Notes: a model not told the origin generated them from the sequence alone. Positions 53,996 through 61,407 are shown, counted from the stretch's first letter. The stretch: 64,000 bases of DNA from Candidatus Hodarchaeota archaeon (GCA_029856365.1 JAHQWW010000006.1:21555-85554), one strand, 5' to 3'. A program made the numbers and translations.

Positions 53996-54367
53996 ATGTC
54001 GAAGAAGAAAAATGATAAATTATCTGATATTAAGCAGATGAGTACACTATTACTTTCAGGAGCTACAATGCTAGCAGATTCTTGTCCAGACTGTAAAGTT
54101 CCTCTGTTTAAAAAGAATGAGAATACATTTTGCCCAAAATGTGGTAGAAAAGCTGTATTTGTTAGTTCTGATGACGAAGTCAGAGAAATTGAACATGCTT
54201 ACTCGTTCTCAGAAACCCGTGAGATAATACAAGACATTTTAACAGGGAAATTAACTTATATTGCTCAAAAGCTTGCAGATTGTGAGGATTTTGAAGAAAT
54301 GAAAATTATTCTTGAAATATTGGATTTATTACTCAACCTAACTACTAAAATCATTAGAATTAAGTAA
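53996..54367 (+). CDS. UPF0148/SSSCA1-family zinc-finger protein
   Basis: LLLSGATML..SCPDC..PLF...FCPKC. Confidence 0.82.
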   Translation: MSKKKNDKLSDIKQMSTLLLSGATMLADSCPDCKVPLFKKNENTFCPKCGRKAVFVSSDDEVREIEHAYSFSETREIIQDILTGKLTYIAQKLADCEDFEEMKIILEILDLLLNLTTKIIRIK

Positions 54368-54477: not shown

Positions 54478-54954
54478 TTGGGACGAATTTTAGGTAGAAT
54501 CCTTCGTATATTAGCCTGGATTGCACCTATATACCAATTTAGGGCTAATGTATGGCGTAGATGTGGTGTGAACATTGGAAAGCGTGTATATATAGGAAAT
54601 TTAGTCTTTATTGACAGTCAATATCCACATTTGATAACAGTCGAAGATGATGCTAGTATTGGGCCCTTAACTTTAATTCTCGCTCATTCTGGAGGAAGTC
54701 CTTATCATCAGCAAACTGGTATTTTTAAACAAAAACCGAAACCAGTGCACATAAAACGTGGTGCATGGATCGGATCTGGTGCAATCATCCTCCCGGGAGC
54801 AATAATCGGTGAAGGATCTATTGTCGCTTCTGGGGCTGTTGTTAACCGACCAATTCCCGACTTCAGGGTTGCTGCTGGTAATCCAGCACGAGTAGTTTCT
54901 AAATTACCAAGACCAAAAACAGGGAGGCTTATGAAAAATGAAGAAAGAAAATAA
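54478..54954 (+). CDS. Hexapeptide-repeat (left-handed beta-helix) acyltransferase
   Basis: GVNIGKRVYIG, IKRGAWIG, IIGEGSIV, AGNPARV. Confidence 0.88.
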   Translation: MGRILGRILRILAWIAPIYQFRANVWRRCGVNIGKRVYIGNLVFIDSQYPHLITVEDDASIGPLTLILAHSGGSPYHQQTGIFKQKPKPVHIKRGAWIGSGAIILPGAIIGEGSIVASGAVVNRPIPDFRVAAGNPARVVSKLPRPKTGRLMKNEERK

Positions 54955-54989
54955 CTACATTTTTCAGTGGTTATGGGAAAGTCATTCCC

Positions 54990-55238
54990 TTAGGTGACGT
55001 TAATTCCATGCTTACCCAGGATTTTTTTTATATCACCAATTGTTTTTATTTCTATGATGTCATCATCTGATAGAAAAAAATCAAAGGCCTGCTCCAATTC
55101 AGATACCAAAGCAAGATGAGTCATAGAATCCCAGATTTCGAGGTTTTTTTGAGAAATATCGTTGTTTATCATATTTCTTTCTAATAGAAGGATCTTACAA
55201 ATAATATCCTCGTATATATCTTGAGCTTTCGTCATCAT
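54990..55238 (-). CDS. Acyl carrier protein
   Basis: 82 aa, acidic, WDSM phosphopantetheine-attachment Ser, helix II ..ELE..F, TIGDI. Confidence 0.88.
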   Translation of the reverse strand: MMTKAQDIYEDIICKILLLERNMINNDISQKNLEIWDSMTHLALVSELEQAFDFFLSDDDIIEIKTIGDIKKILGKHGINVT

Positions 55239-57088
55239 TCTTCAACTACCTGAATGTATTCAGGATAGATTATCTTGGATTCCAGAGGATGAAATACCCA
55301 ACGCATATATCCATCATTTCGTTTTTCTACTAATTTAAAGCCATGTTTTGGATAAAAATCCTTTACTAATGAGTTCTTCTTCGTGGGAATGTATTCAGCT
55401 TCGAGATTTTCCACTTTCTTCTTTTGAACATCCTTTATTATTTTATATAAGAATGTTGTTTCAATTTTTCTACCGATTACCCGACAACTCATAAGAAAAC
55501 TATCAATTAGATATGTTTCTACGGAATTTATCTTAACAATCGCAACGCCTACAGTTCCTTCGTGACCATATTTATCAAGGACTTCCAAAGTGTATATAAG
55601 ATATCTTTCGCTGTTAGAAAACATTTGGTGTATCTCGGCCTCTGTATAGCGTCTAGTTGTTAAATTAAATTGATTTGTCCGATTCAGAAGACTTGTGATA
55701 CGTGGAAGAACTAAATCATCAGCAAATTTAATTTTTGCTACAATGTTTAACGATTTAATGAACTCTTCAATGGATTGTACCTGTTGTTCAAGAACTTGGC
55801 GTTTTCGCCTTGCATAATACATTTTACCGCGGTTGAGATCCTCCCTGGTCAGTGATAGCGTGTTAAAGTCGTTCATTTTTTCTAAAGCTTGTCGAAACAG
55901 TGTAGGGCTAGCTGGTAGCTCCACAACATGAACATCAGGCAAGGATGTTCTTATGCGTTCACGTTCTATGGGATTGTCATCAAGAAAGACAAAGCTATCT
56001 AATCCAATATTAATTTCCTTACTCAATTCAATAAGGTTTTGTACTTTATCATTCCAATTAATGCGATAAGCAGCCAGATTTTTTTCTTTTATAAGCATGA
56101 AAGGATGTTTCTGGAAGACCTCAAGAGCATCATCAAGATTATTCTTACTGTTTACTGCTAAAATGATACCCCTATTGTTTAAGCTCAAGAGAGAGCGTTG
56201 AAAATCTACAAATTCATTTCCTGGATAAGTGACGTTAAGTTTGATCCCATCGAGCTCATCTTCTCCAATAATACCACCCCAAAGAGTACCATCCAAATCA
56301 AGAACAACACATTTCCTATTCTTCGATTTTAGTGCTTTAATGTACCCCATCAACTCATAAGAAACATGAGGCAAGAAAGAGTCTTTGAATAGCAGCGAAC
56401 CCCGATAATTCATTGAATAATTCATGTACCTGTCTTTGCCATAACTGCTAGCAACTTCATTGAGATCAAATATGAAAACTTGTTTGTTATTTCGGAATGA
56501 TTTTTCAAGCCTTGTATTTAATAGTTGATAGAAGCGCTTGAAGCCAATTTCCTGTTTATTATCTAGAATTCCAAAAGGAGAAAACGTTGGTAATACAAAA
56601 TTACTAAAAAGTATTAGAGATTCACTCCTTTGATTTAATAATGTCAAGAGTTGTATTAAATTCTGAATAATTCGATCCAATTCGGTCTGTTTATCTTTTA
56701 TGTTCGTTTGAGGAAATTTAACTCTAAACATATCTTCTAACAATGATTCTACTTCAATAAAAAGTATTACTATATCTGGTTGAGATTGGTAAAGGCCACT
56801 CTGTTCGTTAATAATCTCTTCTTGAAACCGGTTGAATGGAGCGATATAGATTTCTGGAAAAAGCCCTTCTAAACGGCAGTATATGTCAAGATAAATCGCT
56901 AGCGGATCAATAGTAAATGAACTCATCAAGGCGATGTTTATACCTTGGCTTGGGGGAATTTCCATGGTCGAAAAATCTAACTGTTTAATTCGCTTATACA
57001 CGTTCCAATAATTCCTATGAGTCGGTTCTTTACGAACCAATTCAAGTAAATCATTTTGTTCATGAAATACATCGATTCTGGAATTCAT
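55235..57088 (-). CDS. FkbH-like HAD-IIIC glyceryl-ACP transferase/phosphatase
   Basis: DLDGTLWGG, SKN, INW.DK, FLDDNPIER, RTNQFNLTT, FLMSCRV; ATG 57088. Confidence 0.92.
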   Translation of the reverse strand: MNSRIDVFHEQNDLLELVRKEPTHRNYWNVYKRIKQLDFSTMEIPPSQGINIALMSSFTIDPLAIYLDIYCRLEGLFPEIYIAPFNRFQEEIINEQSGLYQSQPDIVILFIEVESLLEDMFRVKFPQTNIKDKQTELDRIIQNLIQLLTLLNQRSESLILFSNFVLPTFSPFGILDNKQEIGFKRFYQLLNTRLEKSFRNNKQVFIFDLNEVASSYGKDRYMNYSMNYRGSLLFKDSFLPHVSYELMGYIKALKSKNRKCVVLDLDGTLWGGIIGEDELDGIKLNVTYPGNEFVDFQRSLLSLNNRGIILAVNSKNNLDDALEVFQKHPFMLIKEKNLAAYRINWNDKVQNLIELSKEINIGLDSFVFLDDNPIERERIRTSLPDVHVVELPASPTLFRQALEKMNDFNTLSLTREDLNRGKMYYARRKRQVLEQQVQSIEEFIKSLNIVAKIKFADDLVLPRITSLLNRTNQFNLTTRRYTEAEIHQMFSNSERYLIYTLEVLDKYGHEGTVGVAIVKINSVETYLIDSFLMSCRVIGRKIETTFLYKIIKDVQKKKVENLEAEYIPTKKNSLVKDFYPKHGFKLVEKRNDGYMRWVFHPLESKIIYPEYIQVVEE

Positions 57089-57548
57089 CGTTAACTTCTC
57101 GCTCCAATTTAACTTTAATCTCACTTAATTCCTTTAATAAGTCATAATCGGATGATCGCGAAAAAACTATAGCCCATGCTATAGCTAGTTCACTAGAGTG
57201 TGCTATAGTGACTTGAACTTTTAGATCATAATTGTCATTCAACCATTTATTTCCTATTGAAGGAGATATTGTTCTATCTTCAGGCCAAACTTCAGGTTTC
57301 CCATTTTTATCATGTTGAATTGAAATTTGGGTGAGTTTTATTGGTAATAACTTATTTACAGCTTTAAAGATTGCCTCTTTTGCAGCGAAAATCCCTGCAA
57401 AATGAGGATATGGATCAGAAAAGTCACTACAATATTGCAATTCATATTCACTGAAGATATGTGCATAAAAACGTGAATGTTTTGAAGGAGGAAACGCCCT
57501 AAAGCGTTGGATTTCAATAATATCAATACCTATGAAGCAGTTTGTCAA
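57060..57548 (-). CDS. acpS: Holo-ACP synthase (phosphopantetheinyl transferase)
   Basis: GIDIIE, FSEYE, FAAKEA.FKA, GKP, TIAH. Confidence 0.9.
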   Translation of the reverse strand: MTNCFIGIDIIEIQRFRAFPPSKHSRFYAHIFSEYELQYCSDFSDPYPHFAGIFAAKEAIFKAVNKLLPIKLTQISIQHDKNGKPEVWPEDRTISPSIGNKWLNDNYDLKVQVTIAHSSELAIAWAIVFSRSSDYDLLKELSEIKVKLEREVNDEFQNRCIS

Positions 57549-57567
57549 TTAAAATCAAACCTTATAA

Positions 57568-58431
57568 CTAAGTTCTTCTCATATAATCAAAAAAAGTAAA
57601 ATTATCTATATCCCCTGTAAGTAAGCAACAAACAGGTGCATGTCCTTTCCATCGCTGGTATTTTGACCAGTAATCCACCGCATCCGAAACCGTGGGCACC
57701 CACGCACCAATTCTCCTTGCATGAAGGAGTAAACTACTCAAACTTTGAATATACTCTTTCTGTCCGATTCTTATTGGATGAAGATCGTACATAATAAGTC
57801 CATTAACCTTTCGAGCTTTTTCTAATTGAATAATCAGGATTTTAGCCATTTTTTCTGATGAAAGTTTGTATCTATCAATCATACGGTCATCAGACCACTC
57901 ACATAAAGGAATACAGGTGTAAGACGACATATTTCCATTTCTTAATTTAACTTTAAAGAATTCATAACCATGTCTATACTCATGACGATATCCTATTCCT
58001 CCATCCCACTTAAATCCAAATTCTTCCACCAAATCTATAGTAGTTTTTGAATATGCATTGTAAGGCGCTCTAAAACCTTTATAAGGAATCTTTAATTCCC
58101 TAAAAATATGGATAGCCTTCTTTAGTTCAAGTGCTTGTTGTTTAGGAGATAAAAATGGATATTTTATGTGTTTATACCCATGAATAGCTATTTCATGAGG
58201 AAATGACCTTAACCATTCGACTAATGAAGGATTAGATTGAGCTGTTGCTGCTACAAGGGGAAATGTAAATTTTGCATCATATTCATCAAGAATTTCTAAA
58301 ATCCTTTGTAATAATTGAGAAAAAGGCGTTTTATGGAAACGAAACATTTTCACAGCATGGTTAATAACCTGCTTACCACGTCTACCTCTTAAATGCATCA
58401 ACCATGATGTCAGACGACTCCTATTTACCAT
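57568..58431 (-). CDS. Polysaccharide deacetylase (CE4/NodB fold)
   Basis: TFP, HEIAIHGYKH, GFRAPY, LHP; C-terminal TGDID may be a permuted motif 1. Confidence 0.8.
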   Translation of the reverse strand: MVNRSRLTSWLMHLRGRRGKQVINHAVKMFRFHKTPFSQLLQRILEILDEYDAKFTFPLVAATAQSNPSLVEWLRSFPHEIAIHGYKHIKYPFLSPKQQALELKKAIHIFRELKIPYKGFRAPYNAYSKTTIDLVEEFGFKWDGGIGYRHEYRHGYEFFKVKLRNGNMSSYTCIPLCEWSDDRMIDRYKLSSEKMAKILIIQLEKARKVNGLIMYDLHPIRIGQKEYIQSLSSLLLHARRIGAWVPTVSDAVDYWSKYQRWKGHAPVCCLLTGDIDNFTFFDYMRRT

Positions 58432-58715
58432 ATTTTTCCCAAGGATAATTAAGACGCCTTAAAAGTAGAAATCCAATAATTAATTAAATATTTTTCATTG
58501 TAAGTTAATAAGATCGCTTTTCTTTTCAAGATAGACTGTTATTAATCAAATTCATGAATATGGGCCTCTAAAGGTTAAAGCAATAAGTACCCCTTTTTAC
58601 TACTATTTATGTTAATAAAAGACTATAGAGAATATCTATATTATATTTTTGATTTGGTTTAAAGACTCCATACCATTAATGTCAAATAAACCTTAATTCA
58701 TTTATGCTTCCACTA

Positions 58716-59051
58716 TTATTTCAATAACGAATAAAAATGAACTAGTTCTTCTTGTATCTCATTCCTTAATTTCATTATATCATTAATTTCAATGGGTTCA
58801 GAATGTTTTATAATAATATTCAATTGTACAACGTTACCGATTGCTTGAATATTTTCTGATTTAACAGTAAATTCTGTATCAAGACCCTTCACAGTCAAAC
58901 TAATAGTTGGTGAGGGAATTTGAATTCTAATGTTACGAATAACCCCAATCATACGAGCATTTGCATCAATAACCGCCTTTCCTACAAGTTTTCCTGGAAA
59001 CATGAGCTCAAATAACTCTATATCGATGTCTATTGGCTGTTTTGTCATCAT
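58716..59051 (-). CDS. PRC-barrel domain protein
   Basis: LVGKAVIDANA..IGVI and ENIQAIGNVV pattern. Confidence 0.7.
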   Translation of the reverse strand: MMTKQPIDIDIELFELMFPGKLVGKAVIDANARMIGVIRNIRIQIPSPTISLTVKGLDTEFTVKSENIQAIGNVVQLNIIIKHSEPIEINDIMKLRNEIQEELVHFYSLLK

Positions 59052-59229
59052 TGACACCATATATCGGTGAAGATTACATGAAACAATCAAAATATTGTAT
59101 TACATTACACAAATAAAATATTGTAAAAGAGTGCCGTTTGCAAAGCAAGTAAGCCGTTTTAGAATAAATTGCTATTTTTCTCATAGATATGAATTATCTA
59201 ACAGAGAAATCTCAAGGTGAAACAGCTAT

Positions 59230-61407
59230 ATGCCCATTATTATTGATAGAATCCTAGATGACCTCAGAAATCGCTATAATACTGCGATTACAACGATTAA
59301 CAAAGAAATACTTCTAAGCTATTCAGCTATCATTTTCATTTTCATTTTAGCTTATCTCGTTAGGATATTTGCAGTTATAAAACCATATGAAATTATTCTT
59401 ACAGCTAATGATCCTTATTCCCAATATCGTGCAGCAATTTACATCGAAGAACATGGTCTTGCTCAATTTTTAAGCTGGGTTGATAACCAGACGTGGTACC
59501 CTGAAGGACGATTCTGGGGGCGAGGTTTTTACCTCGGAACACCTATTTCAGCAGTAATACTACATCAAATAACAATATTCTTGGGGTTAGACATTCCTTT
59601 AATGGTAGTTTGCTATTATCAACCAGCTCTATTAGGATCTATAACCTGTATAGCAATATATTTTCTAGGGAAAGAACTAAGTAATAAAAAAGTTGGAATA
59701 CTTGCTGCATTCTTTCTAGCGATTTCAGCTGGCCACTTACAACGAACTATAGTCGGATTCTTTGACAATGAATCAATGGGAATTCTTTTCCTTGTCCTTG
59801 CATTGTATTTCTATGCGCGATCATTACGGACAGGGTCAGTTATTATAACAATAATTTCGGGAATTTGCCTTGGAATCCTATCTGGATCATGGGGAGCCTC
59901 GACTTACGTCTTCAACTTAATAGCAATTCATACGTTCGCTCTGTTAATTCTTAAAAAGCATTCAGATAGATTATTTCTTTCATACGGGGGAACAGTTCTT
60001 ATAGGGTTCTTCATCATGACATTGATTCCAAGAAATGGCCCTGAATCTATCTTCGCTACGGACGCTTTGACTTGTTTAGCTGTCCTTGGTCTATTAACCC
60101 TAGCAGAAATTTATCGCTACATTAACACATTTTATGACACAACGCAAATCCGTGCTCGCTTTAAAACCTTTATTCCTTTTATTGGAATTGCCACTGTCTT
60201 AGTATTCATCGTTTTATTGGTAGGAGGTTATTTAACAAATATCTCATCAAAATTTGTTACTGTTCTTTTACCGATATTCCGAGATGATGCTCCTATATTA
60301 AAATCAGTTAGCGAGCATCAAATTGTAACTTGGGCTACATTTTTCAGAAATACTGGATTATTAATCTTTTTCTTACCTTTAAGTATCTATTACCTTTACG
60401 AAAAACCAACCGAAAAGAACATTCTTCTTTTATTATTTGGGATTACAACAATATATTTCGCTGGTTCTATGGTAAGATTAGCTCTAATATTAGCTCCAGC
60501 TGTTTCCTTGTTGGCAGCAAAGGCCATTGACCAGACCTTATTACCTTTTGTATTAGCATTTCAAGAACGATTTGCTCTAAGTCGACGAAAAACTCGCTTC
60601 ATACAGCCATTATCTAATGAACAAACTGCAATCGCTTTCTTATTTATAGGTCTTCTTTTATTATATGCAGTAGGTACGGCTGTGGATGAATCTGCTAAAT
60701 CAACTCAGGCTTCTTCCATACTTACCCCAGTATATACAGGAAACCAGATCATTCTAGGAAATGACTGGCAAGAAGCAATAAGCTGGTTAGATTATCATAC
60801 TGGACCAAAGGATGTGACTGCTTCTTGGTGGGACTATGGTTATTGGATCAGTGGAACTTCTAATACAACCATTTTAGTAGATAATTCCACTGGTAATAGC
60901 ACAAAAATTGGTAATGTTGGGTGTTTATTGGTTCTCAACCCACCAGACTCTTTAAAAATTGCGAAAATGTACGATGTAACCTACATCGTCCTTTTGGTCT
61001 CTGATGGTGTGTACCAACTTGATTCTGACCTTGGTAAAGTCCCATGGTTTATTCGTATTGGAGCAGCTAATGGTAATATTATCCAAATAGATCCAGATGA
61101 TTATCTTGAGTACGATTCGAGAGGCCAATACATCCAAGGATATGTCGATAAGTTCTATGACTCAGTATTTTGGTCATTATTTACAGGAGGAGGAGCCCCA
61201 GATGAAACAGGTGTTTCAACGGAAGTTTTTGAGCGCATTAAATTATATCCTCCAATAACTGATAATGCTCCTGCAACAAAAGGTTTCTCCGATACTTACG
61301 CAGAGTATGCGCAGTATTATGAGCTTGCTTATAGAACAACCCATAGATGGATATATATTTGGCGAATCAACTGGGATATAATCCCCCCAGGGGCTATTAC
61401 ACCGTAG
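59230..61407 (+). CDS. aglB: Oligosaccharyltransferase STT3/AglB, eukaryote-type
   Basis: DPY, WYPEGR, FDNE, SVSEHQ, WWDYG, DNSTGN, DLGK..W.IRI. Confidence 0.95.
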   Translation: MPIIIDRILDDLRNRYNTAITTINKEILLSYSAIIFIFILAYLVRIFAVIKPYEIILTANDPYSQYRAAIYIEEHGLAQFLSWVDNQTWYPEGRFWGRGFYLGTPISAVILHQITIFLGLDIPLMVVCYYQPALLGSITCIAIYFLGKELSNKKVGILAAFFLAISAGHLQRTIVGFFDNESMGILFLVLALYFYARSLRTGSVIITIISGICLGILSGSWGASTYVFNLIAIHTFALLILKKHSDRLFLSYGGTVLIGFFIMTLIPRNGPESIFATDALTCLAVLGLLTLAEIYRYINTFYDTTQIRARFKTFIPFIGIATVLVFIVLLVGGYLTNISSKFVTVLLPIFRDDAPILKSVSEHQIVTWATFFRNTGLLIFFLPLSIYYLYEKPTEKNILLLLFGITTIYFAGSMVRLALILAPAVSLLAAKAIDQTLLPFVLAFQERFALSRRKTRFIQPLSNEQTAIAFLFIGLLLLYAVGTAVDESAKSTQASSILTPVYTGNQIILGNDWQEAISWLDYHTGPKDVTASWWDYGYWISGTSNTTILVDNSTGNSTKIGNVGCLLVLNPPDSLKIAKMYDVTYIVLLVSDGVYQLDSDLGKVPWFIRIGAANGNIIQIDPDDYLEYDSRGQYIQGYVDKFYDSVFWSLFTGGGAPDETGVSTEVFERIKLYPPITDNAPATKGFSDTYAEYAQYYELAYRTTHRWIYIWRINWDIIPPGAITP

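What the first reader, a model, noticed from the sequence alone, without database searches (positions are those of the whole stretch)
54478..61407. ACP-dependent glyceryl-transfer cluster beside the oligosaccharyltransferase
Seen: operon deacetylase > acpS > fkbH > ACP with overlapping ORFs, a convergent hexapeptide acyltransferase, and STT3/AglB about 800 nt away across a PRC-barrel gene. No ketosynthase, PKS or NRPS gene is in the window. Established: ACP/AcpS are rare in archaea; FkbH enzymes load glycerate from 1,3-bisphosphoglycerate onto holo-ACP; similar FkbH+ACP pairs occur in bacterial surface-polysaccharide loci. Inference: a self-contained pathway that de-N-acetylates a glycan sugar and re-acylates it with glycerate from glyceryl-S-ACP, producing glyceroylated N-glycans. 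I know of no description of this in Asgard archaea.
Basis: partly seen in the sequence, partly recalled or inferred. Interest (0 to 1): 0.8.

Follow-up and report, generated by a model that had tools for sequence, protein, structure and literature searches.

The report
Archaeal carrier-protein sugar-acylation cassette beside AglB
An Asgard (Hodarchaeales) archaeon carries, right next to its only N-glycosylation enzyme gene, a self-contained five-gene cassette that probably loads a glycolysis-derived three-carbon acid onto an acyl carrier protein and uses it to replace the acetyl group on an amino sugar, chemistry that has not been described in archaea.

Summary
Window 54478-58431 encodes a hexapeptide (LbH) acyltransferase convergent on an operon of CE4 deacetylase > AcpS > FkbH-like > ACP. 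The ORFs overlap, and aglB starts 798 nt from the operon.

- **Dedicated carrier system.** This is the only ACP, AcpS and FkbH gene set in the 84%-complete genome. No ketosynthase or malonyl transferase was found.
- **Conserved cassette.** The same five genes, often with a VOC/glyoxalase gene, form an archaea-only clade in Heimdallarchaeia, Thorarchaeia and Bathyarchaeia.
- **Discrete unit.** Within the window's genus it is a clean presence/absence insert at one site beside aglB, and AcpS co-occurs exactly with FkbH.
- **Link to AglB.** The cassette also lies beside a lineage-typical aglB in Bathyarchaeia, which is a second, independent juxtaposition. Thorarchaeia and others lack this linkage.
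- **Catalytic state.** FkbH catalytic motifs are intact. The CE4 appears to carry its Asp motif at the C-terminus. A model docks ACP Ser38 onto the LbH trimer (0.63 vs 0.00 control).

Best reading (about 0.5): an N-acetyl-to-glyceroyl swap on a glycan sugar. The acyl group, the acceptor and the N-glycan destination are all inferred.

The scan found this cassette earlier on other DNA (Bathyarchaeia, Thor-like genomes). I found no published description. I class it as a new variant of a known kind.

The parts
54478..54954 (+). LbH (hexapeptide-repeat) acyltransferase, 158 aa, TTG start. It is the proposed transferase that moves the acyl group from acyl-ACP to the acceptor.
   Evidence: Pfam Hexapep scores 46.5 bits. 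It is related to the MAT/GAT/WcaF families, and WlbB is among its PDB matches. It is conserved next to the ACP operon in every complete archaeal cassette. H70, W97 and R138 are invariant. The trimer is predicted to dock ACP at the subunit interface, residues 117-142.
54990..55238 (-). Acyl carrier protein, 82 aa, with the phosphopantetheine attachment site at Ser38 in a WDSM motif.
   Evidence: PF00550 scores 23.1 bits against a cut-off of 20.8. W36 and D37 are invariant and S38 is conserved in at least 90% of 25 orthologues. It is the only PP-binding match in the genome.
55235..57088 (-). FkbH-like three-domain enzyme, about 617 aa (the ORF extends to 57124 from a GTG). It has an N-terminal FkbH_N domain, a HAD-IIIC phosphatase domain and a C-terminal GNAT-fold domain with Cys547. 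It is the proposed glyceryl-ACP synthase using 1,3-bisphosphoglycerate.
   Evidence: TIGR01686 scores 291 bits against a cut-off of 147, and PF21211 also matches. D276-x-D278, S326, K360, D382-D383 and S546-C547-R548 are invariant. The N-terminal and HAD part matches PDB 3SLR, and the C-terminal domain matches GNAT folds.
57060..57548 (-). AcpS-type 4'-phosphopantetheinyl transferase, 162 aa, TTG start.
   Evidence: PF01648 scores 61.6 bits and TIGR00556 scores 62 bits against a cut-off of 45. It is the only ACPS match in the genome. Within the genus it occurs in exactly the genomes that have FkbH.
57568..58431 (-). CE4 (NodB-fold) deacetylase-like protein, 287 aa, of a cassette-specific subfamily with an invariant C-terminal LLTGDIDN motif.
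   Evidence: PF01522 scores 65.5 bits. The model has pLDDT 93 and a CE4 fold; its best structural matches are PuuE, putative polysaccharide deacetylases, HP0310 and ArnD. H84, H88, R121, D216, H218, D274 and D276 are invariant. Only 243 relatives were found among 5.8 billion proteins, and nearly all named ones come from Asgard or Bathyarchaeia.
58716..59090 (-). Small conserved ORF (about 114 aa from ATG 59061), possibly PRC-barrel-like. It belongs to the genomic backbone with aglB, not to the cassette.
   Evidence: It is kept next to aglB in congeners that lack the cassette. It has no Pfam hit. An ESM-Atlas look-alike is named as a PRC-barrel cluster.
59230..61407 (+). AglB/STT3 oligosaccharyltransferase, 725 aa. 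It is a neighbour of the cassette and a candidate downstream user of the modified glycan.
   Evidence: PF02516 scores 172 bits. It has WWDYG at residue 533 and about 9 hydrophobic segments. It is the only STT3 match in the genome.

Best explanation
Window 54478-58431 is an accessory cassette of about 4 kb that makes an acyl-ACP from central metabolism and uses it to re-acylate an amino sugar.

Proposed steps:
1. AcpS converts apo-ACP to holo-ACP at Ser38.
2. The FkbH-like enzyme takes 1,3-bisphosphoglycerate onto Cys547. Its HAD domain removes the 3-phosphate. The glyceryl group then passes to holo-ACP.
3. The CE4 enzyme removes an N-acetyl group from a cytoplasmic sugar intermediate, either a nucleotide sugar or a polyprenyl-phosphate-linked sugar.
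4. The LbH trimer binds glyceryl-ACP at a subunit interface and transfers the acyl group to the freed amine.
5. In many relatives a VOC/glyoxalase-family protein may epimerise or otherwise alter the acyl-thioester. That gene is missing here.

The product would be an N-glyceroyl (or related C3-acyl) hexosamine that ends up in a surface glycan. Given the position beside aglB, this is most likely the N-glycan.

Shown: the gene content, motif conservation, co-inheritance and genomic placement. Inferred: every chemical step, the acyl identity and the acceptor.
For: **Family assignments and catalytic residues**
- Assignments.
- HAD motifs I-IV and the SCR cysteine are invariant in 14 orthologues and kept in all Asgard homologues examined.
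- The OzmB mechanism is summarised in PMC9057759.

**Dedicated carrier system**
- The genome has one ACP, one AcpS and one FkbH, and no KS or MCAT.
- In the genus, ACPS occurs in the 11 genomes with FkbH and in none of the 11 without.

**Conservation of the whole cassette**
- All five genes are kept together through rearrangements in about 35 distinct loci of Heimdallarchaeia, Thorarchaeia and Bathyarchaeia.
- Their FkbH proteins form one archaea-only clade (SH-aLRT 97).
- The CE4 subfamily is practically confined to these taxa.

**Discrete unit**
- Four congeners without the cassette have p27 directly followed by ORF124, aglB and PolD.

**Link to glycosylation**
- The cassette is next to aglB in the genus and, in another arrangement, in a Bathyarchaeia subclade.
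- That Bathyarchaeia AglB is 48-50% identical to a non-adjacent Bathyarchaeia AglB but only about 32% identical to the Hodarchaeales one. The two juxtapositions are therefore independent.
- More distant archaeal FkbH+ACP genes lie among GT4, GT2, UDP-GlcNAc 2-epimerase, MBOAT and aminoglycoside-N-acetyltransferase-like genes.
- A census of genes around the bacterial FkbH loci, nearly all with an adjacent ACP, is led by CE4, sugar-nucleotide epimerase/dehydratase, SDR, methyltransferase, VOC, GT and MBOAT families.
- A same-genus ACP-less FkbH paralogue sits between GT2/GT4 genes and a PIG-L de-N-acetylase.

**LbH-ACP docking**
- Score 0.63; best of 3 controls 0.00.
- This mark was reached by 58 of 80 solved complexes and 2 of 110 mismatched pairs.
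- The runs agree in at least 95% of contacts, and partner pLDDT is at least 85.
- ACP residues 37-43, including Ser38, contact LbH residues 117-142 of two subunits.
Against: - No biochemistry exists for this 600-aa FkbH subfamily, so the acyl group could differ from glycerate.
- MAT/GAT-type LbH enzymes normally use acetyl-CoA. Solved LpxA/LpxD-ACP complexes exist, so the docking pass may owe something to likeness. My own alignments and a 3+1 chain set-up also differ from the tool's calibration.
- The CE4 lacks the canonical N-terminal Asp-Asp motif. The proposed C-terminal replacement was not checked at coordinate level.
- aglB adjacency is missing in all Thorarchaeia loci, in family f7, and in several Bathyarchaeia and two same-genus loci.
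- The Hodarchaeales neighbourhood is otherwise housekeeping genes (aaRS, RpoB, PolD), so position alone is weak evidence.
- OSTs generally need the C2 acetamido group on the reducing-end sugar (my own knowledge). The modified sugar would therefore have to be distal.
Confidence: 0.5

Rival explanations
1. The chemistry is the same (an ACP-borne C3 acyl placed on a de-acetylated amino sugar), but the product is not the AglB-transferred N-glycan. It would instead be another envelope glycoconjugate, such as a glycolipid head group, an O-glycan, an exopolysaccharide or a free nucleotide-sugar pool.
For: Most cassette loci are not near aglB. This applies to all Thorarchaeia loci, family f7, L004, L127 and L129. 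Thorarchaeia loci keep a geranylgeranyl-reductase-like gene and a second LbH gene nearby. ArnD, a CE4 enzyme acting on a polyprenyl-phosphate-linked aminosugar of lipid A modification, is among the structural matches. The LbH's best NCBIfam hit, far below cut-off, is a lipid O-acetyltransferase family.
Against: There are two independent juxtapositions with the sole aglB of the genome. No lipid head-group or polysaccharide export genes are conserved around the cassette.
Confidence: 0.25
2. The cassette makes a small molecule rather than a glycan decoration, for example a glycerate-derived metabolite or signalling compound. FkbH/ACP would act as in polyketide or tetronate pathways.
For: All characterised FkbH/OzmB enzymes feed polyketide or non-ribosomal pathways.
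Against: The genome has no ketosynthase, FabH-like enzyme or malonyl transferase. No FkbI/K/G-type dehydrogenase or methyltransferase is seen in the cassette loci. The conserved partners are a sugar-type deacetylase fold and a sugar-type LbH transferase.
Confidence: 0.08
3. The LbH transferase and the CE4 enzyme form an ordinary acetyl-CoA-dependent O-acetylation/de-acetylation pair. They would be merely co-located with an unrelated FkbH/ACP/AcpS trio.
For: The LbH protein's nearest families are acetyl-CoA-dependent O-acetyltransferases (MAT, GAT, WcaF). CE4 enzymes include O-acetyl esterases.
Against: All five genes stay together through at least three gene orders in three classes. They are gained or lost as one block. 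The CE4 subfamily is essentially restricted to cassette-bearing taxa. ACP Ser38 is predicted to dock at the LbH acyl-donor groove.
Confidence: 0.07

Closest known systems
FkbH/OzmB-type glyceryl-ACP synthases (methoxymalonyl-ACP, tetronate and related polyketide pathways)
   Same: Both have a HAD-IIIC phosphatase domain joined to a C-terminal domain with the conserved SCR cysteine. The TIGR01686 match is well above cut-off. A dedicated small ACP is encoded next door (mechanism in PMC9057759).
   Different: The protein here is about 250 residues longer, with an extra FkbH_N domain like that of Bacteroides BF1531 (PDB 3SLR). There is no FkbI/K/G tailoring set and no PKS or KS anywhere in the genome. 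It belongs to an archaea-only clade, and its partners are a CE4 and an LbH transferase.
Bacterial glycan loci with FkbH-domain genes and ACPs, such as Campylobacter jejuni cj1302 in the flagellin glycosylation locus; N-glyceroyl pseudaminic acid of Tannerella forsythia
   Same: An FkbH-domain gene lies among glycosylation genes (PMC7099621). Glyceroyl-modified sugars exist in bacterial protein glycans (PMC5378307). Genes around the bacterial FkbH loci are dominated by sugar-modifying families, including CE4 and VOC.
   Different: The enzymology is unresolved even in bacteria; for Tannerella it 'remains a major challenge'. The bacterial proteins form a separate clade (SH-aLRT 98). Bacterial hosts have other ACP systems, whereas here the ACP system is unique to the cassette.
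Nod-factor tailoring (NodB de-N-acetylase, NodA N-acyltransferase with the NodF ACP, NodL LbH O-acetyltransferase)
   Same: The logic is the same: a CE4 enzyme removes an N-acetyl group, and an acyl group carried on a dedicated ACP is then installed. An LbH transferase of the MAT/GAT/NodL type is part of the set. NodB is a weak NCBIfam hit. The Nod pathway details come from my own knowledge.
   Different: There is no NodA or NodC homologue. The acyl group would be a C3 hydroxy acid rather than a fatty acid, and the LbH enzyme rather than a NodA-type enzyme is the proposed ACP-dependent transferase.
Lipid A LpxC/LpxD step (deacetylase followed by an LbH N-acyltransferase that uses acyl-ACP)
   Same: De-N-acetylation of a sugar is followed by N-acylation by a trimeric LbH enzyme that docks acyl-ACP (my own knowledge). 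ACP docking on the LbH trimer is predicted here.
   Different: LpxC is not a CE4 enzyme. The LbH protein here is MAT/WcaF-like, not LpxD-like. The acyl source is glycolysis, not fatty-acid synthesis.
ArnD (CE4 deformylase acting on undecaprenyl-phosphate-linked 4-amino-arabinose)
   Same: It has a CE4 fold and acts on a lipid-linked amino sugar at the cytoplasmic face. It is a structural match at rank 11, TM 0.57.
   Different: Sequence identity is low (12%). The substrate here is unknown, and the Asp motif appears relocated to the C-terminus.

Membership tests
FkbH/OzmB glyceryl-ACP synthase (TIGR01686 FkbH domain) | Score above the curated family cut-off | tested here: met
   291.3 bits against a cut-off of 146.65, covering residues 270-598; 293 bits in the genome search.
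FkbH/OzmB glyceryl-ACP synthase (TIGR01686 FkbH domain) | HAD phosphatase motifs I-IV (DxDxT, S/T, K, DD) | tested here: met
   D276, D278, S326, K360 and D382-D383 are invariant in 14 orthologues and present in all type-A and type-B Asgard homologues aligned.
FkbH/OzmB glyceryl-ACP synthase (TIGR01686 FkbH domain) | Conserved cysteine in the C-terminal domain, proposed to hold the acyl-S-enzyme intermediate | tested here: met
   S546-C547-R548 is invariant. The C-terminal domain has a GNAT fold. That this cysteine is the catalytic one comes from my own recollection of the OzmB work.
FkbH/OzmB glyceryl-ACP synthase (TIGR01686 FkbH domain) | Adjacent dedicated ACP | tested here: met
   There is a 4-nt overlap with the ACP gene. 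An ACP gene lies next to FkbH in nearly all type-A loci and in nearly all bacterial loci sampled.
FkbH/OzmB glyceryl-ACP synthase (TIGR01686 FkbH domain) | Polyketide context (FkbI/K/G-type oxidation and methylation genes, KS or PKS) | tested here: not met
   None is in the cassette loci. The genome has no KS, FabH or MCAT.
FkbH/OzmB glyceryl-ACP synthase (TIGR01686 FkbH domain) | Use of 1,3-bisphosphoglycerate and formation of glyceryl-S-ACP | not testable with these tools
   This needs an enzyme assay with intact-protein mass spectrometry.
CE4 (NodB-type) metal-dependent de-N-acetylase | Deformed (beta/alpha) barrel CE4 fold | tested here: met
   The model has pLDDT 93. Foldseek E-values are 1.7e-10 to 1e-9 to PuuE and polysaccharide deacetylase structures.
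CE4 (NodB-type) metal-dependent de-N-acetylase | His-His metal ligands, Arg of motif 3 and His of motif 5 | tested here: met
   H84, H88, R121-x-P123-Y124 and D216-x-H218 are invariant in 25 orthologues.
CE4 (NodB-type) metal-dependent de-N-acetylase | Motif 1 Asp-Asp (catalytic base and metal ligand) on the first strand | tested here: not met
   The N-terminal region is helical and has no conserved Asp. An invariant C-terminal strand plus T272-G273-D274-I275-D276 is a candidate replacement, but its geometry was not checked.
LbH (hexapeptide-repeat) acyltransferase, MAT/GAT/WcaF/NodL-like | Hexapeptide repeats and similarity to solved trimeric sugar acyltransferases | tested here: met
   PF00132 scores 46.5 bits. 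PDB matches include GAT, MAT and WlbB at E 1e-17 to 1e-11.
LbH (hexapeptide-repeat) acyltransferase, MAT/GAT/WcaF/NodL-like | Acetyl-CoA as the acyl donor | tested here: inconclusive
   All NCBIfam equivalog scores are far below cut-off. The model docks ACP Ser38 at the inter-subunit groove with score 0.63 against 0.00 for the best control; the mark was reached by 58 of 80 solved complexes and 2 of 110 mismatched pairs. The donor must be assayed.
AcpS-type phosphopantetheinyl transferase | Score above the domain cut-off | tested here: met
   TIGR00556 scores 62 bits against 45.35, and PF01648 scores 61.6 against 25. It is just below the acpS equivalog cut-off (55.9 against 59.8).
AglB/STT3 oligosaccharyltransferase (the neighbour) | STT3 domain and WWDYG catalytic motif | tested here: met
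   PF02516 scores 172 bits, and WWDYG is at residue 533. It is the only copy in the genome.

The most novel reading that the evidence does not exclude
Some Asgard and Bathyarchaeia archaea decorate their N-linked glycans with an N-glyceroyl (C3 hydroxy-acyl) hexosamine. The decoration would be made by the only ACP-dependent pathway these cells possess and would draw its acyl group directly from the glycolytic intermediate 1,3-bisphosphoglycerate. The cassette would be a strain-variable, horizontally exchanged surface-glycan switch inserted beside aglB. It would use two unprecedented enzyme variants: a CE4 whose catalytic Asp motif has moved to the C-terminus, and a MAT-like LbH transferase that takes its donor from ACP rather than CoA.
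Probability: 0.3. Interest if true: 0.75.

Novelty: new variant of a known kind. Interest (0 to 1): 0.62.

Why it matters
**A dedicated ACP role in archaea.** Archaea are regarded as largely lacking ACP and its activating enzyme (PMC3533463). Here an ACP system exists solely for one small cassette that appears to tailor a sugar. That would be a new role for carrier-protein chemistry in archaea.

**An unsolved enzymology.** How N-glyceroyl sugars are made is unresolved even in bacteria (PMC5378307). This cassette offers a compact five-protein system for working it out.

**Natural controls.** Close relatives with and without the cassette at the same locus act as natural knock-outs for glycan comparison.

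**Relevance to eukaryote origins.** The host belongs to Hodarchaeales, regarded as the closest archaeal relatives of eukaryotes (my own knowledge). Its N-glycosylation pathway is therefore of evolutionary interest.

**Limit.** If the acceptor turns out not to be the N-glycan, the finding is still a conserved archaeal glycoconjugate-tailoring module, but a less striking one.

Tried and rejected
- **PKS or lipid use of the ACP.** I searched the genome for ketoacyl-synt, ACP_syn_III_C, Acyl_transf_1, PP-binding and ACPS. Only weak sub-threshold thiolase-type hits and the cassette's own genes were found.
- **Co-transfer of aglB with the cassette.** Rejected. The Bathyarchaeia aglB next to the cassette resembles another Bathyarchaeia aglB (48-50% identity), not the Hodarchaeales one (about 32%).
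- **Recent transfer from bacteria.** The tree gives no sign of it. Cassette FkbH proteins form one archaea-only clade apart from the main bacterial clade. The tree is unrooted, so direction cannot be told.
- **VOC/glyoxalase gene.** It is frequent in relatives, but no orthologue was found in this genome by tblastn.
- **Flanking repeats that would mark a mobile element.** Only short, imperfect AT-rich matches were found, such as 26-nt arms at 54302 and 58469 with 77% complementarity. I judge these to be chance.
- **PRC-barrel call for ORF 58716-59090.** No Pfam support; only an Atlas lead.
- **Literature.** There were no hits for FkbH + ACP + glycan, and the FkbH + archaea hits were irrelevant. 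One broad search and one ACP/Asgard search gave nothing useful.
- **Full-length FkbH model.** Its confidence is only moderate (pLDDT 71), so I drew no conclusion about the N-terminal domain beyond its match to 3SLR.

Full report
**1. Observation**

- an LbH/hexapeptide transferase at 54478-54954 (+);
- an ACP at 54990-55238 (-), with a WDSM motif and Ser38;
- an FkbH-like protein at 55235-57124 (-);
- an AcpS-type phosphopantetheinyl transferase at 57060-57548 (-);
- a CE4 polysaccharide-deacetylase-family protein at 57568-58431 (-);
- a 124-aa ORF at 58716-59090 (-);
- STT3/AglB at 59230-61407 (+), with WWDYG at residue 533.

The FkbH-like protein matches TIGR01686 at 291 bits (cut-off 147) over residues 270-598 and FkbH_N over residues 75-259. 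Its homologues are 617-618 aa, so it probably starts at ATG 57088.

The operon is compact. ACP and FkbH overlap by 4 nt. FkbH and AcpS overlap by 29 nt. AcpS and CE4 are 19 nt apart. The LbH gene converges on the ACP gene with 35 nt between the stops. aglB starts 798 nt from the CE4 start.

None of the five cassette proteins has a predicted membrane segment.

The small ORF has no Pfam match. The 'PRC-barrel' label rests only on an ESM-Atlas look-alike.

**2. The carrier system is dedicated**

The window lies on contig C81 of a 4.24-Mb assembly that is 83.6% complete. That assembly has:
- one FkbH match, one PP-binding match and one ACPS match, all in the cassette;
- no Acyl_transf_1 match;
- only weak sub-threshold thiolase-type hits for the ketosynthase families;
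- a single STT3, the one beside the cassette.

Absence claims are limited by the completeness of the assembly.

**3. Conservation**

The FkbH-like protein has relatives of 60-86% identity in Heimdallarchaeia/Hodarchaeales and of 50-55% identity in Bathyarchaeia.

Gene maps came from public contigs, 80 loci from species-representative genomes and 44 further stretches cut from Asgard and Bathyarchaeia genomes. In about 35 distinct archaeal loci the same five genes occur together whenever the contig allows. A VOC/glyoxalase gene often accompanies them. At least three gene orders are seen.

In a maximum-likelihood tree these FkbH proteins form one archaea-only clade (42 rows, SH-aLRT 97). Its topology is Thorarchaeia | (Bathyarchaeia + Heimdallarchaeia). 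It is separate from a large bacterial clade (SH-aLRT 98) and from an ACP-less Asgard paralogue clade. The tree is unrooted, so no donor can be named.

The CE4 protein belongs to a small subfamily. It has 243 relatives among 5.8 billion proteins, and almost all the named ones come from the same archaeal groups.

**4. Distribution**

- The family passes its cut-off in 66 of 399 Asgard genomes.
- In the largest Asgard family sampled (135 genomes) no match came near the cut-off (best E about 1e-6).
- It is found in about half of the window's genus, and is absent from congeners that are 93-94% complete.
- It is found in only 5 of 301 Bathyarchaeia genomes sampled.

Within the genus, ACPS is found in exactly the 11 genomes that have FkbH and in none of the 11 that lack it.

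Four cassette-less congeners have the same backbone: RpoB, a 361-aa gene, an aaRS, p27, ORF124, aglB and the PolD small subunit. In them p27 and ORF124 are directly adjacent. The cassette is therefore a discrete block of about 4 kb that is gained or lost at one site beside aglB. ORF124 belongs to the backbone. No convincing flanking repeats were found.

**5. Link to glycosylation**

aglB lies about 2 kb from the cassette in seven distinct loci of the genus. In four Bathyarchaeia loci it lies beside the cassette in another arrangement: AcpS>FkbH>ACP, convergent LbH, CE4 and VOC, then aglB.

The Bathyarchaeia AglB proteins next to the cassette are 48-50% identical to a Bathyarchaeia AglB that lies 600 kb from its cassette. 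They are only about 32% identical to the Hodarchaeales AglB. The AglBs are therefore lineage-typical, and the juxtaposition arose at least twice.

Against this, no aglB lies within about 10 kb in any Thorarchaeia locus, in family f7, in several Bathyarchaeia loci or in two same-genus loci.

Wider context points the same way:
- More distant archaeal FkbH+ACP genes (Woesearchaeota, Nitrosotenuis) lie among GT4, GT2, UDP-GlcNAc 2-epimerase, MaoC, SDR, an aminoglycoside-N-acetyltransferase-like gene, or MBOAT+DUF1574.
- In a sample of 137 genes within 3.5 kb of bacterial FkbH genes (nearly all with an adjacent ACP), the commonest families are CE4, sugar-nucleotide epimerase/dehydratase, SDR/KR, methyltransferase, VOC, GT1/GT4, MBOAT, GNAT and DegT. 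No ketosynthase family is among the 25 commonest.
- An ACP-less FkbH paralogue in a same-genus genome sits in a co-directional cluster of GT4, a PIG-L de-N-acetylase, a sulfotransferase, GT2 genes and a sugar-1-phosphate nucleotidyltransferase.

**6. Catalytic state of the parts**

*FkbH-like.* HAD motifs I-IV and the SCR cysteine are invariant. The C-terminal domain has a GNAT fold, and the N-terminal and HAD part matches the uncharacterised BF1531 structure 3SLR. The OzmB mechanism, as summarised in PMC9057759, runs from 1,3-bisphosphoglycerate to phosphoglyceryl-S-enzyme, then dephosphorylation, then transfer to ACP.

*CE4.* The model is confident (pLDDT 93) and has the CE4 fold. PuuE, putative polysaccharide deacetylases, HP0310 and ArnD are the best structural matches. 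H84, H88, R121 and H218 are invariant. The usual N-terminal Asp motif is missing. An invariant C-terminal strand followed by TGDID (D274, D276) may supply it. This looks like a permutation, but I did not verify it at coordinate level.

*LbH.* It is related to MAT/GAT/WcaF-type enzymes, and the sugar N-acetyltransferase WlbB is among its PDB matches. All equivalog scores are far below their cut-offs.

*LbH-ACP complex.* A prediction for three LbH chains and one ACP passed. The score was 0.63 and the best of three controls was 0.00. The mark was reached by 58 of 80 solved complexes and 2 of 110 mismatched pairs. The runs agree in at least 95% of contacts, and partner pLDDT is at least 85. ACP residues 37-43, around Ser38, touch LbH residues 117-142 of two subunits, which is where LbH enzymes bind the pantetheine arm of their donor. 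Two caveats apply. LbH-ACP complexes of lipid A enzymes are solved, so likeness may contribute. My alignments and chain set-up also differ from the tool's calibration.

**7. Explanation and rivals**

The best-supported reading is an N-acyl swap. AcpS primes the ACP. FkbH loads a glycerate-derived acyl group. CE4 frees an amine on a cytoplasmic sugar intermediate. The LbH trimer transfers the acyl group from ACP. The logic resembles NodB/NodA/NodF/NodL in Nod-factor synthesis and LpxC/LpxD in lipid A synthesis (my own knowledge). It works like them but is not a member of either system.

I put about 0.5 on this reading with an N-glycan destination. I put about 0.25 on the same chemistry aimed at another glycoconjugate. 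Small probabilities go to a small-molecule product and to an unrelated acetyl-CoA-dependent role for the LbH and CE4 genes.

**8. Novelty**

No paper in the library links FkbH to archaea or to archaeal glycans. ACP and its processing enzymes are reported as rare in archaea and acquired by transfer (PMC3533463). The genetic basis of N-glyceroyl sugars is described as unresolved in bacteria (PMC5378307). An fkbH-domain gene is merely noted in the Campylobacter flagellar glycosylation locus (PMC7099621).

Earlier notes of this scan describe the same cassette on other DNA, including a followed-up Bathyarchaeia case beside aglB. Those are not independent evidence, but they agree with what I found.

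I class the finding as a new variant of a known kind.

Noticed in passing
L132:1390-11937 (G016, another Heimdallarchaeia family; not in the window's genome): A single 3,515-aa open frame carries NMO-type enoyl reductase, KS, AT, a second KS-like region, three PP-binding domains, KR, PKS-type DH and an Sfp-type PPTase. It looks like a fused PUFA-synthase or PKS-like megasynthase. ACPS domains inside frames of 3,200-3,600 aa recur in families f4-f7. PKS clusters in Heimdallarchaeota are mentioned in BGC surveys.
   Followed up: partly
L110:4561-15294 (G074, same genus): A second, ACP-less FkbH-like paralogue ('type B', HAD motifs and SCR cysteine intact) sits in a co-directional glycosylation cluster. 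The cluster has GT4, a PIG-L-family de-N-acetylase, a sulfotransferase, GT2 genes, an LPG_synthase_TM protein and a sugar-1-P nucleotidyltransferase. Type B forms its own clade in several Asgard families.
   Followed up: partly
window 57568-58431; alignment A2: The CE4 subfamily lacks the N-terminal Asp motif but has an invariant C-terminal LLTGDIDN after a confident beta-strand. This suggests a circularly permuted catalytic motif.
   Followed up: partly
L062:9592-14395 (Woesearchaeota): The gene order is AcpS > FkbH > ACP > MBOAT > DUF1574. This resembles the Dlt-type (carrier protein plus MBOAT) route for acylating an extracytoplasmic polymer.
   Followed up: no
L011:5704-7929 and the syntenic Thorarchaeia loci: Thorarchaeia cassettes keep a second, larger LbH protein (about 292 aa) and a geranylgeranyl-reductase-like flavoprotein 2-4 kb upstream. 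An unannotated 306-aa gene lies next to the CE4.
   Followed up: no
L137 (JGI contig); protein P0217: The identical CE4 protein carries the source name 'Latescibacteria bacterium DG_63'. However, the contig fetched for it carries the full archaeal cassette next to an STT3 gene, so that label is probably a mis-binned archaeal contig.
   Followed up: partly
window 54302-54327 and 58469-58494: Imperfect 26-nt inverted arms (77% complementary) bracket the cassette. The sequence is AT-rich, so this is probably chance.
   Followed up: no
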